A DNA stretch of 64,000 bases, from the NCBI RefSeq assembly GCF_003991155.1, contig NZ_CP031293.1, one strand, 5' to 3'. The position numbers were made by a program. The DNA comes from Escherichia coli (lineage in GTDB: Bacteria; Pseudomonadota; Gammaproteobacteria; Enterobacterales; Enterobacteriaceae). Of the stretch, positions 1-3,000 are shown one piece after another (within the stretch, counting starts at the first letter, position 1; each line of letters starts with the position of its first letter).

Positions 1-3000
1 ACGTGCGCCAGCGGGTTTTGCACCATTGAGATATTTCCCGGTCAGTGTGCCGAAACCCAGGCACGAATAGGCCAGCAGTTCGACCCCTTCATACTGGCTG
101 ACTTCTGCCAGACCTACTTCAAAACTGCGGTTTAACAGGCTGTAGGGGTTCTGAATGGTGACAATACGCGGCAGATCGTGTTTGTCCGCCAGATGCAGGT
201 AGCGCATTACGCCAAATGCAGTTTCGTTCGACACGCCGATATAACGAATTTTTCCCGCGCGTTGGTACTCTGCCAGTGCGTCCAGTGTATCCAGCAGCGA
301 AACCGCAGGCGCAGAATCTGTCCAGCTATAACCGAGTTTGCCGAAGCAGTTGGTTGGGCGCTGCGGCCAGTGCACCTGATAGAGATCGAGGTAATCAGTC
401 TGCAGACGCTTGAGGCTGTCATGCAGCGCTTCGCGGATATTCTTCCGATCCAGCGCCTGATCCGGGCGGATGCCTTTGTCATTATTGCGCGACGGTCCAC
501 TCACTTTGGAGGCGATAATTAACTTTTCGCGGCTGCCATGTTTCGCCAGCCAGTTGCCGACGTAGGTTTCGGTTAACCCTTGCGTTTCGGGGCGCGGAGG
601 TACTGGGTACATTTCGGCAACGTCGATAAGGTTAATGCCCTGAGCGACGGCATAGTCGAGTTGTGCGTGGGCGTCGGCTTCGCTGTTCTGTTCACCAAAC
701 GTCATCGTGCCAAGCCCCAGCGTGCTGACTTCCAGCAAACTGTGGGGTATACGGTGATATTGCATAGCCGTTTCCTTTTTATAATCACGACATAAGGAAT
801 ATAAAAATGGCAGAGGGAAGGGAAAAGGGAAAGAGAAAAATCTTAAGGCCAGCCGGATGCTGACCTTATTTGTTAACGTTCAATAATTTGCGAAACATCA
901 TCACGGTTAATTTGCATCGCGTTACCTTGCTGATCGTGATAACTCACCAGCCCGGTATCATCATCAATTTCAGGTTTTCCATCGGTCAAAATCATACGGC
1001 CATCTTTGGTCGCCATGACGTAATCACTGGAACACCCGGATACAGCAAACGCCAGTCCGACTGCAGAAATTATTACTGCCCATTTTTTCATCCGGTTATC
1101 CTCATTTGGCCCACCTATGATAATAGTCTTTTTATAAACCGACGTTATATATCTTGAAAGCAGGAAAATCTTAAACTGTGAGGGTAACAGGAGTGAGTAC
1201 GCTCTCCTGCAGGAGAGCGTACGGATATCAAAGTGGATTTTTTTTGTTGCGAATCAGGTTGAGGCTTTCAACCGCAATAGAGAAGAACATCGCAAAGTAG
1301 ATGTAACCTTTCGGTACGTGGATGTCGAAACTTTCCAGAATCAGGGTAAAGCCCACCAGAATCAGGAAAGAGAGCGCCAGCATTTTTACCGAAGGATGGC
1401 GTTCGACAAAATCACCAATCGAGCGCGCGGCGAACATCATCACGCCTACGGCAATCACCACGGCGGCCATCATAATAAACAGGTGATCTGACAGACCCAC
1501 AGCGGTAATCACCGAGTCGAGGCTGAAGATAATATCCAGCAGCATAATCTGCACGATAGCGCCGAGGAATGATGAAACGCGTGTTTTCAGCCCTTCTTCT
1601 TCACCTTCAATGGATTCGTGGATTTCCTTGCTGGCTTTCCAGATAAGGAACAAGCCACCCAGAAGCAGAATCAAATCACGGGCGGAAATTTCCTGGCTGA
1701 ATATTGTAAAAAGCGGATTTGTCAGGCGCGTAACCCAGGCGATGGATGCCAGCAGCGCCAGACGCATAACCATGGCTCCCGCCAACCCCAGACGGCGCGC
1801 ATGAGCACGTTGTGCTGTGGGGAGCTTTGCCACCACCAGAGAAAGGAAAATAATATTGTCGATCCCAAGAACGATCTCCAGCAGCGTCAGCGTACCGAGC
1901 GCAAGCCAGGCGTTAGGATCGGTTATCCATGCAAATAACATCTAAAAAGCCCTGCCAAAAAAATGAAGCGGTAATTATATGCCCGGAAAGCGGCAGGTCA
2001 AAGCGATGGCTACTGGATCAGAAAATGACGGGCCAGTAGCGCACTGGTGAAATTCTTCTTCAAATAAAAGCCGCGCGGCAGCGTCAGAATCCGTTCGCCC
2101 CGGGCACCAATGGCTTCGGTAAGCGCTTTCGCATTCGCTGCTTTCGGTCGTATCTGTAAATATTCCCCGTGACGAGCGGTAATCCGCTCAACCTGACCGA
2201 GAACAATCATATCCATTAATTCTTCCCAGTCTTCGCGTAGCTGCCGGTCTTCCTCTTCATTCGGGCTCCACAGCAACGGTGATCCAACGCGACGCTTTGC
2301 CAGCGGGATGCTGCGCTCGCCTTCAACCGGTATCCACAGTACGCGTTTGAGCTTGTGGCGCACGTGGCTGGTTTCCCAGGTCACCCCGCTATTACCCGTT
2401 AACGGGGCAACACAAACGAATGTTGTTTCCAGCGGACGACCAAGACTATCCACAGGGATAGTTTTAAGTTCCACGCCCAGAGCAGCAAAATCTTGCTCAG
2501 GTTTACTCCCTGCGCTGGCACCTAGCCAGATCTCCAGTAACACGCCAATCCAGCCCTTATCGCGTTTTAAATTCTCTGGTGTAACCAGCCCGGCAAGTGC
2601 CGCCAGTTCTCCCAATGTATAACCAGAAAGTTGCTGTGCTTGCGCTAACAACTGTTCTTCAGTTTCGGGAGGAGAGAGCAGTGGGCGAGGTTGGGACATG
2701 TCACGATACCTTGGTTAAAAAATAAACAGCAATTATGTGCCGAATATTCGCAGTGTAACTTTTTCCACAGGCGTTGTTCAATTCTCTGATTTATATTACT
2801 TTTTAGGTTGCCGGTAATCGAGTTGCGCAACACTGCAATGGGTTTTCCAAATCTGGTCACTGAAAATAAACAGGATCTTACACCATGTTATCCACAGAAA
2901 GCTGGGATAACTGTGAAAAACCTCCACTACTGTTTCCATTTACAGCCTTGACGTGCGACGAAACTCCAGTTTTTAGTGGTTCAGTGCTTAACTTAGTGGC

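What the first reader, a model, noticed from the sequence alone, without database searches (positions are those of the whole stretch)
1197..1222. Perfect 26-bp palindrome immediately downstream of ygdQ
gtacgctctcctg|caggagagcgtac is a perfect 13+13 palindrome starting 6 nt after the ygdQ stop codon and about 106 nt upstream of the ygdR start. It lacks a U tract on the ygdQ strand, so it is not a canonical intrinsic terminator. It could be an operator for a dimeric regulator, an RNase III or other processing site, or a Rho-dependent pause element.
Basis: seen in the sequence. Interest (0 to 1): 0.25.

Follow-up and report, generated by a model that had tools for sequence, protein, structure and literature searches.

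The report
Hairpin marking the ygdQ mRNA end
The perfect 26-bp palindrome is real, but it is an ordinary RNA stem-loop at the 3' end of the E. coli ygdQ message, of the U-tract-less kind that caps Rho-terminated transcripts, not a DNA operator.

Summary
The palindrome GTACGCTCTCCTGCAGGAGAGCGTAC is at window 1197-1222, 5 nt past the ygdQ stop codon and 105 nt before the ygdR ATG, all on the - strand. It is the longest perfect palindrome in the window.

Perfect DNA symmetry is a minority allele. Only 47 of 5423 complete E. coli genomes share the 45-mer. About 98% carry GTACGCTCTCCTGCGGGAGGGCGTAC, which breaks the dyad but keeps the hairpin on the ygdQ-sense RNA through a G.U pair (-21.5 kcal/mol sense, -15.8 antisense).

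Nearly all of the 80 other Enterobacterales species sampled have a GC-rich hairpin close behind the ygdQ stop. The sequences differ and show compensatory changes. In Klebsiella, Raoultella, Kosakonia, Kluyvera and others it carries a T-tract, so it is a canonical terminator. In Escherichia, Salmonella and Citrobacter a C-rich, G-poor spacer replaces the T-tract.

Published Term-seq for MG1655 (Adams 2021) places the ygdQ 3' end 5 nt after this hairpin. The same study lists it in a bicyclomycin-sensitive Rho region (Rho score about 2.1) with an intrinsic-terminator score of 1.39.

Best reading: Rho terminates downstream and exonucleases trim back to the hairpin. This is ordinary and already catalogued.

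The parts
1197..1222 (-). Stem-loop at the 3' end of ygdQ mRNA. The 5' arm is 1222->1212 (GUACGCUCUCC), the loop is 1211->1208 (UGCA) and the 3' arm is 1207->1197 (GGAGAGCGUAC).
   Evidence: Perfect inverted repeat. RNA fold is -20.6 kcal/mol, z = -5.1, with 0 of 200 shuffles as stable. Pairing is kept with compensatory changes in Escherichia, Citrobacter and Salmonella. A positionally equivalent hairpin is present in nearly all of the 80 Enterobacterales loci.
1228..1941 (-). ygdQ coding sequence (TerC-family membrane protein). The stop codon TGA is at 1230->1228.
   Evidence: ORF list. RefSeq annotation of the identical strain 2016C-3878.
1192..1192 (-). Position equivalent to the Term-seq 3' end of ygdQ mRNA in MG1655 (2971170, + strand there). 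It lies 5 nt downstream of the stem and 101 nt upstream of the ygdR ATG.
   Evidence: Adams et al. 2021 Supplementary files 1 and 3. Coordinates were transferred through the gap-free alignment of this stretch. The transfer was checked with the ygdR terminator, whose end 2971521 corresponds to window 841, 3 nt after the stem 868->844.
1176..1196 (-). C-rich, G-poor pyrimidine spacer TCACTCCTGTTACCCTCACAG. It occupies the place of the U-tract and is a candidate start of a rut region.
   Evidence: It has 9 C and 2 G; the first 40 nt after the hairpin have 12 C and 4 G. Spacers of 20-31 nt with different sequences but the same composition occur in 17 Escherichia, Citrobacter and Salmonella alleles (C/G = 5.1, 73% pyrimidine).
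1157..1175 (-). Conserved block TTTAAGATTTTCCTGCTTT upstream of ygdR. It is not part of the hairpin and marks where the ygdR control region begins.
   Evidence: Conserved in the alignment of the ygdQ-ygdR intergenic regions of 19 taxa. The hairpin lies from about 0 to about 35 nt upstream of it, depending on genus.
873..1091 (-). ygdR coding sequence (lipoprotein), the downstream co-directional gene.
   Evidence: ygdR follows ygdQ on the same strand within 400 nt in 77 of 80 loci.

Best explanation
The palindrome is the DNA image of an RNA stem-loop (11 bp, UGCA loop) at the 3' end of the ygdQ mRNA.

Inferred mechanism: RNA polymerase transcribes past the hairpin, because no U-tract follows it. 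Rho loads on the untranslated, C-rich, G-poor RNA just downstream and terminates diffusely in the ygdQ-ygdR spacer or early ygdR. The 3'->5' exonucleases (PNPase, RNase II) then trim the tail back until they stall a few nucleotides 3' of the stable helix. This gives a defined, protected ygdQ 3' end about 5 nt after the stem.

What is shown: the hairpin, its strand-specific conservation, the absence of a U-tract, the C>G spacer, the mapped 3' end, and a modest bicyclomycin effect. The last two come from the K-12 allele in published data.

What is inferred: that Rho acts on this particular transcript rather than on neighbouring ones, that exonucleases do the trimming, and that the window's allele behaves like the K-12 allele.

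The element looks like a descendant of a canonical intrinsic terminator that other Enterobacteriaceae still have at the same place. Perfect DNA symmetry has no function of its own. It arises because the stem is perfect and the tetraloop happens to be self-complementary.
For: (1) Strand-specific RNA constraint. The majority E. coli allele GTACGCTCTCCTGCGGGAGGGCGTAC differs by A->G in the loop and A->G in the 3' arm. On the ygdQ-sense RNA this gives U.G and -21.5 kcal/mol. On the opposite strand it gives a C.A mismatch and -15.8 kcal/mol. All three one-sided stem changes seen are G.U on the sense strand.

(2) Covariation. In 16 Escherichia, Citrobacter and Salmonella alleles 89.6% of cells pair, against 45-59% when the partners are slid. 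Five pairs change on both sides, including A-U<->U-A and U-A<->C-G.

(3) Positional conservation with sequence turnover. A hairpin of roughly -12 to -26 kcal/mol starts within about 14 nt of the ygdQ stop in most of the 80 species. By the tool's own definition it is a canonical hairpin plus T-tract in Klebsiella 4/4, Raoultella 5/5, Kosakonia 6/7, Kluyvera 4/5, Franconibacter 2/2 and Cedecea 2/2. It is not in Escherichia 0/4, Salmonella 0/1 or Citrobacter 1/12.

(4) Experiment on MG1655 (Adams et al. 2021, PMC7815308). A Term-seq 'primary' ygdQ 3' end lies at 2971170, 5 nt after the stem. A Rho termination region is listed at 2971168, with Rho score 2.13 and p = 4.7e-6. At the 3' end itself the Rho score is 2.05, the site is flagged 'Yes', and the intrinsic-terminator score is 1.39 (threshold 3.0).

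(5) Fit to the class described by Dar & Sorek 2018 (PMC6061677). Rho-dependent transcripts end precisely just 3' of stable stem-loops that lack U-tracts and upstream A-tracts. These are followed by C>G enrichment and are trimmed by PNPase and RNase II.

(6) C>G downstream. There are 12 C and 4 G in the first 40 nt. The clade-wide spacer C/G is 5.1.
Against: The Rho score is barely above the authors' 2.0 guide value. It is computed over 800-nt windows that include the separately and more strongly expressed ygdR, so it is not specific to ygdQ read-through.

The 3' end was called in only one of three growth conditions, with a modest read count (785, against 5510 for ygdR).

The C-rich spacer is only about 20-40 nt, shorter than a typical rut site, and only about 105 nt of untranslated RNA precede ygdR.

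All experimental data are for the K-12 allele, not for the perfect-palindrome allele of the window. Exonuclease dependence at this locus has not been measured.
Confidence: 0.65

Rival explanations
1. A weak, non-canonical intrinsic terminator or hairpin-dependent pause site. The very stable hairpin itself makes RNAP pause or release a few nt downstream without a proper U-tract. Rho plays at most an assisting role, catching the paused polymerase.
For: The orthologous hairpins in many genera are canonical intrinsic terminators, so residual activity is plausible. The mapped 3' end is very close to the stem, at +5. The K-12 allele has UUUU 9-12 nt after the stem. The hairpin is strong at -20.6 kcal/mol.
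Against: There is no U-tract within 8 nt of the stem. The intrinsic-terminator score is 1.39, below 3.0, and the site is listed as a Rho termination region. The window allele has an even poorer tail (CUGUUA) than K-12. By established knowledge, the E. coli enzyme needs the U-rich RNA:DNA hybrid for efficient release.
Confidence: 0.2
2. A regulated attenuator that controls read-through from ygdQ, or from a start site inside the ygdQ 3' part, into ygdR. The hairpin plus Rho site would then sit in a long ygdR leader.
For: Adams et al. kept this 3' end in their table of '3' ends upstream of ORFs' (-101 from ygdR). By their stated rule this implies a mapped TSS 21-200 nt upstream on the same strand. 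The ygdQ-hairpin-ygdR order is conserved in 77 of 80 species. A weak alternative pairing exists between the 3' arm and the next 11 nt (I5).
Against: No promoter-like site is found in the ygdQ 3' part. ygdR has its own conserved upstream blocks and a roughly 7-fold higher 3'-end signal. The alternative pairing is only 82% complementary over 11 nt, is not seen in the predicted ensemble (the main hairpin is 62-90% of it), and is not conserved in E. albertii. No ligand- or protein-binding element and no leader ORF is visible.
Confidence: 0.08
3. A palindromic DNA operator bound by a dimeric transcription factor that regulates ygdR or ygdQ.
For: A perfect 13+13 dyad in the window is far beyond chance. 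It lies about 105 nt upstream of the ygdR ATG.
Against: About 98% of complete E. coli genomes carry an allele that breaks the dyad at two positions, one of them in an arm. Half-site sequence is not conserved between genera; only pairing is. The distance to the conserved ygdR upstream blocks varies from 0 to about 35 nt. A G+C-rich 11-bp stem with no spacer is typical of a terminator-type hairpin. No second copy exists elsewhere in the genome.
Confidence: 0.03
4. An RNase III (or other double-strand-specific) processing site that separates ygdQ and ygdR messages.
For: It is a perfect helix located between two co-directional genes.
Against: The helix is 11 bp, about half the roughly two helical turns that RNase III normally needs (established knowledge). 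The mapped 3' end lies 5 nt outside the stem, not within it.
Confidence: 0.02

Closest known systems
[quoted passage not shown] 2012 for REP-associated cases)
   Same: It is a stable GC-rich stem-loop right after the stop codon, with no U-tract after it and no A-tract before it. C>G composition follows downstream. The steady-state 3' end lies a few nt 3' of the stem, and the region is bicyclomycin-sensitive.
   Different: Exonuclease dependence has not been measured for this locus. The Rho effect is modest. The untranslated spacer before the next gene is short (105 nt). In the window's lineage the loop is self-complementary, so the DNA reads as a perfect palindrome.
Canonical intrinsic (Rho-independent) terminator
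   Same: The hairpin has typical terminator size and energy. Orthologous positions in Klebsiella, Raoultella, Kosakonia, Kluyvera, Franconibacter and Cedecea carry hairpin plus T-tract terminators. It is probably derived from one.
   Different: There is no U-tract. The published terminator score is 1.39, below 3.0, and the site carries a Rho flag.
REP/BIME extragenic palindromes
   Same: It is an intergenic palindrome that can act as a 3' exonuclease barrier.
   Different: It is single-copy in every E. coli genome, with no second copy in the window. It bears no resemblance to the REP consensus.

Membership tests
Protective 3' stem-loop of a Rho-terminated mRNA (Dar & Sorek class) | Energetically stable stem-loop immediately upstream of the steady-state RNA 3' end | tested here: met
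   The hairpin folds at -20.6 kcal/mol with z = -5.1. The published MG1655 Term-seq end 2971170 maps 5 nt 3' of the stem, equivalent to window 1192. The experimental part applies to the K-12 allele.
Protective 3' stem-loop of a Rho-terminated mRNA (Dar & Sorek class) | No uridine-rich tract after the stem and no A-tract before it | tested here: met
   The tail is UCACUCCUGUUA and the preceding bases are UGAUAUCC. The site is not called by the terminator scan.
Protective 3' stem-loop of a Rho-terminated mRNA (Dar & Sorek class) | C-over-G enrichment just downstream (rut-like) | tested here: met
   There are 12 C and 4 G in the first 40 nt. C/G is 5.1 over 17 clade alleles whose sequences otherwise diverge. 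The tract is short.
Protective 3' stem-loop of a Rho-terminated mRNA (Dar & Sorek class) | Increased read-through when Rho is inhibited | tested here: inconclusive
   Published Rho scores are 2.13 (p = 4.7e-6) and 2.05, and the site is flagged as a Rho termination region. The scores are barely above 2.0 and use 800-nt windows that include ygdR.
Protective 3' stem-loop of a Rho-terminated mRNA (Dar & Sorek class) | Longer 3' tails appear in pnp or rnb mutants | not testable with these tools
   No per-gene exonuclease data are held (one search found no supplement).
Canonical intrinsic terminator | GC-rich hairpin followed within 0-2 nt by at least 5 U in 8 | tested here: not met
   The site is not found by the scan, which does find the ygdR terminator. 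A custom scan gives 0/4 Escherichia against 4/4 Klebsiella and 5/5 Raoultella. The published score is 1.39, below 3.0.
Palindromic operator of a dimeric regulator | Dyad symmetry and half-site sequence conserved in relatives | tested here: not met
   The perfect dyad with identical flanks occurs in 47 of 5423 E. coli genomes. Another 58 are near-identical, and 5318 carry the asymmetric allele. Across genera the sequence is replaced while pairing is kept.
Palindromic operator of a dimeric regulator | Fixed position relative to the regulated promoter | tested here: not met
   The distance from the hairpin to the conserved ygdR upstream block varies from about 0 to about 35 nt among genera.
Palindromic operator of a dimeric regulator | A protein binds the duplex | not testable with these tools
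   No TF-motif or ChIP resource is available.
REP/BIME or other repeated extragenic palindrome | Many copies per genome | tested here: not met
   There is one match in the window at up to 3 mismatches. There is one locus per E. coli genome; the median of 2 'places' is the two strands of the same palindrome.
RNase III site | About 20 bp or more of double-stranded RNA, with cleavage inside the helix | tested here: not met
   The stem is 11 bp. The mapped end lies outside the stem.
Any Rfam family | Score at or above the gathering threshold | tested here: not met
   The best match is mir-5984 at 20.4 bits against a gathering score of 95, E = 0.64. This is a generic hairpin match.

The most novel reading that the evidence does not exclude
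The locus records a switch of termination mode at one orthologous site. An ancestral intrinsic terminator after ygdQ, still present in Klebsiella, Kosakonia, Kluyvera and others, would have lost its U-tract in the Escherichia-Salmonella-Citrobacter lineage to a C-rich insertion and become a Rho-dependent, hairpin-capped end. This might make read-through into the ygdR leader conditional, with Rho-regulated coupling of ygdQ and ygdR or a short transcript from an internal ygdQ start site ending at the hairpin.
Probability: 0.15. Interest if true: 0.35.

Novelty: already known. Interest (0 to 1): 0.1.

Why it matters
It matters little beyond annotation. It assigns a concrete role, the ygdQ mRNA 3'-end stem-loop, to an eye-catching palindrome. 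It also shows that perfect DNA symmetry can be a by-product of an RNA hairpin with a self-complementary loop.

The comparative series is a tidy example of how intrinsic and Rho-dependent 3' ends may interconvert at one site. Some genera have a hairpin plus T-tract, and the E. coli, Salmonella and Citrobacter clade has a hairpin plus C-rich spacer. This could be useful to people who model terminators. It does not open a new question.

Tried and rejected
- **Rfam.** A permissive scan of 700-2100 gave only sub-threshold generic hairpin matches.
- **Repeat family (REP-like).** Rejected, because the element is single-copy in the window and in each genome.
- **Alternative, attenuator-like pairing.** The 3' arm can pair with the next 11 nt (I5). 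This is weak, absent from the predicted ensemble and not conserved in E. albertii.
- **Terminator for the opposite strand.** The T8 run at 1239-1246 is 17 nt from the stem and lies inside ygdQ codons. It is interrupted in the majority allele (GGATTCTTTTT), and no + strand gene converges here.
- **Small ORFs.** Only a 40-aa GTG ORF on the + strand crosses the palindrome, with nothing to support it.
- **Further public 3'-end or operon datasets.** Dar & Sorek 2018, the Term-seq 3'-UTR valves paper, TERMITe, the Rend-seq annotation paper, SMRT-Cappable-seq and the Nanopore RNA paper either had no supplement held as text or did not mention ygdQ or ygdR.
- **Papers naming ygdQ.** These concern MgrR/Hfq regulation at the ygdQ 5' end, not the 3' end.
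- **Operator-motif comparison.** This could not be done, because no TF-motif library is available.
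Full report
**Observation**

The window is E. coli chromosome. All the relevant genes lie on the - strand: tas, ygdR (873-1091), ygdQ (1228-1941) and mutH (2010-2699). The stretch 1050-1350 is 100% identical to strain 2016C-3878.

The 26-mer GTACGCTCTCCTGCAGGAGAGCGTAC sits at 1197-1222 and is perfectly self-complementary. Five nt separate it from the ygdQ stop codon (1230-1228). A further 105 nt separate it from the ygdR ATG (1091). The tail on the ygdQ strand is TCACTCCTGTTA, so no U-tract follows, and the consensus terminator scan skips the site while finding the ygdR terminator at 868->844.

It is the longest perfect palindrome in the 64 kb; the next has half-length 8. 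None of 200 Markov shuffles reached half-length 13. Viewed as a hairpin (11-bp stem, 4-nt loop) it is less exceptional, because four other perfect 10-11-bp stems with loops occur in the window.

**Variation within E. coli**

Across 5426 complete E. coli genomes the locus is present once per genome. Only 47 genomes share the window's 45-mer around the palindrome. Another 58 differ slightly. IAI39 keeps the perfect palindrome with a 1-nt flank indel, and ECOD1 has a loop change, UGCA->GGCA. The remaining 5318, including K-12 and O157:H7, carry GTACGCTCTCCTGCGGGAGGGCGTAC.

This majority allele has two A->G changes, one in the loop and one in the 3' arm. On the ygdQ-sense RNA the arm change turns U-A into U.G, and the hairpin is as stable as before (-21.5 against -20.6 kcal/mol). 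On the opposite strand, or as a DNA dyad, it is a C.A mismatch, and the antisense fold drops to -15.8 kcal/mol.

E. albertii has GTTCGC...GCGAAC, a compensatory A-U to U-A flip, and also keeps CTGCAG. The perfect form may therefore be ancestral in the genus and the common E. coli form derived. Either way, dyad symmetry of the DNA is not what is maintained.

**Comparison across Enterobacterales**

A scan with the YgdQ protein returned 80 species. In most of them a GC-rich hairpin of roughly -12 to -26 kcal/mol starts within about 14 nt of the ygdQ stop. ygdR follows on the same strand in 77 of 80.

The hairpin sequences fall into several unrelated-looking types:
- CGCTC(C/T)CC...GG(G/A)GAGCG in Escherichia, Citrobacter and Salmonella
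- GCTTCCCC...GGGGAAGC in Kosakonia and Phytobacter
- AGCCCTC...GAGGGCT in Kluyvera and Pseudocitrobacter
- TGCAGCCC...GGGCTGCA in Klebsiella and Raoultella
- CAGGGGAAAG...CTTTCCCCTG in Cedecea and Buttiauxella

Within the first type, 16 alleles pair in 89.6% of cells, against 45-59% when the partners are slid. Five of the 11 pairs change on both sides, and every one-sided change is a G.U on the sense strand. The sample is small and related, so this is supportive rather than decisive.

Using the same definition as the scanning tool, the hairpin is followed by a T-tract in Klebsiella 4/4, Raoultella 5/5, Kosakonia 6/7, Kluyvera 4/5, Franconibacter 2/2, Cedecea 2/2 and Mangrovibacter 2/2. That makes it a canonical intrinsic terminator there. 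It is not followed by a T-tract in Escherichia 0/4, Salmonella 0/1 or Citrobacter 1/12, and the one Citrobacter hit is a different, weak hairpin.

In the T-tract genera the T-run abuts a conserved block, TTTAAGAnTTTnCTGCTTT, that belongs to the ygdR upstream region. In the Escherichia-Salmonella-Citrobacter group a 20-31-nt spacer lies between the hairpin and that block. The spacer varies in sequence but its composition is constant: C/G = 5.1 and 73% pyrimidine over 17 alleles. In the window the first 40 nt after the stem have 12 C and 4 G.

**Experimental data from the literature**

Adams et al. 2021 (eLife, PMC7815308) mapped RNA 3' ends in MG1655 by Term-seq. Their Supplementary file 1 lists a 'primary' ygdQ 3' end at 2971170(+), with mean read count 785, in one of three conditions. 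The surrounding sequence is ...GTACGCTCTCCTGCGGGAGGGCGTACTCACT|CC.

The position is 101 nt upstream of the ygdR ATG, which is 5 nt after the stem and corresponds to window 1192. I checked the coordinate transfer with their ygdR end (2971521). It falls 3 nt after the canonical ygdR terminator stem, at window 841.

Their bicyclomycin DirectRNA-seq lists a Rho termination region at 2971168, with Rho score 2.13 and p = 4.7e-6. At the Term-seq end itself the Rho score is 2.05, the site is flagged 'Yes', and the intrinsic-terminator score is 1.39, where above 3.0 predicts intrinsic termination.

Dar & Sorek 2018 (PMC6061677) showed that Rho-dependent E. coli transcripts have precise steady-state 3' ends immediately downstream of stable stem-loops. 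These stem-loops lack U-tracts and upstream A-tracts and are followed by mild C>G enrichment. The ends arise by PNPase and RNase II trimming of longer primary transcripts. The ygdQ hairpin matches each sequence feature of that class.

**Interpretation**

The most likely mechanism (confidence about 0.65) has three steps. RNAP reads through the hairpin. Rho engages the untranslated C-rich RNA and terminates downstream. Exonucleases then trim back to the helix, which defines and stabilises the ygdQ 3' end.

The hairpin, its sense-strand constraint, the missing U-tract, the C>G spacer and the mapped end are shown. Rho action on this specific transcript and the exonuclease step are inferred.

There are weak points. 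The Rho score is marginal and is computed over 800-nt windows that include the independently expressed ygdR. The 3' end was called in only one condition. The C-rich tract is short. All wet-lab data concern the K-12 allele.

**Rivals**

- **Residual intrinsic termination or a hairpin pause (about 0.2).** This cannot be excluded without in vitro transcription.
- **Attenuator role in a long ygdR leader (about 0.08).** The only hint is that Adams et al. retained the site in their '3' ends upstream of ORFs' table, which by their rule implies a mapped TSS 21-200 nt upstream. I found no promoter-like site there, and the alternative pairing (I5) is weak and not conserved.
- **DNA operator (about 0.03).** The population and cross-genus patterns contradict it, as does the variable distance to the ygdR upstream blocks.
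- **RNase III (about 0.02).** It would need a helix about twice as long, and the mapped end lies outside the stem.

There is no Rfam match above threshold. The element is not a repeat family.

**Novelty and score**

Both the kind of element and this instance's 3' end and Rho flag are already in the literature, though only in supplementary tables. The finding is ordinary, with interest about 0.1.

The one mildly interesting by-product is the apparent replacement of a U-tract by a C-rich spacer at an orthologous terminator in the Escherichia-Salmonella-Citrobacter lineage. This suggests a switch from intrinsic to Rho-dependent 3'-end formation.

Noticed in passing
window 1157-1175 and 1123-1138 (- strand); loci L005-L084 downstream of ygdQ: Two blocks upstream of ygdR are conserved across Enterobacteriaceae: TTTAAGAnTTTnCTGCTTT and TTATTACTAGACT (in E. 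coli, TTTATAAAAAGACTAT). About 21 variable nt lie between them. No sigma-70 -35/-10 match of 9/12 or better is found there. This is probably an activator-dependent or alternative-sigma ygdR promoter. A faint likeness of the first block to an RcsB box is from memory only and untested.
   Followed up: partly
L089 (E. coli DCE7, NZ_CP090611.1) 160-200: In one pig isolate an IS4-family element (end CTGTCTCTTGATCAGATCT, annotated as an ISEc13-family transposase) is inserted inside the hairpin. It interrupts the 5' arm (in ygdQ-sense terms) and replaces the ygdQ side of the locus.
   Followed up: partly
window ~1213-1392 (- strand), inside the 3' part of ygdQ: The filtering rule of Adams et al. 2021 implies that a dRNA-seq transcription start site lies 21-200 nt upstream of the ygdQ 3' end on the same strand. 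That would give a short RNA ending at the hairpin. No promoter-like sequence was found there, and the TSS table itself was not available.
   Followed up: partly
window 844-868 (- strand): The canonical ygdR terminator is TAAGGTCAGCATCCGGCTGGCCTTA followed by AGATTTTTCT. The published Term-seq end 2971521 maps 3 nt after the stem (window 841), so it is trimmed into or before the U-tract.
   Followed up: yes
window 54571-54596, 41313-41340, 27591-27614, 60730-60755: Four other perfect 10-11-bp stems with 4-6-nt loops occur. One of them, AAACCGGCTC...GAGCCGGTTT, has flanking A and T runs like a bidirectional terminator. They were not examined further.
   Followed up: no
window 1223-1250 (ygdQ 3' codons and stop): The window's lineage differs from most E. 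coli just upstream of the hairpin as well. It has AAAAAAAATCCACTTTGATA-TCC where most have AAAAAGAATCCGCTCTGATACTCC, including a 1-nt deletion between the stop codon and the stem. The whole 3' end of ygdQ is therefore a distinct haplotype, shared by about 45 complete genomes.
   Followed up: partly
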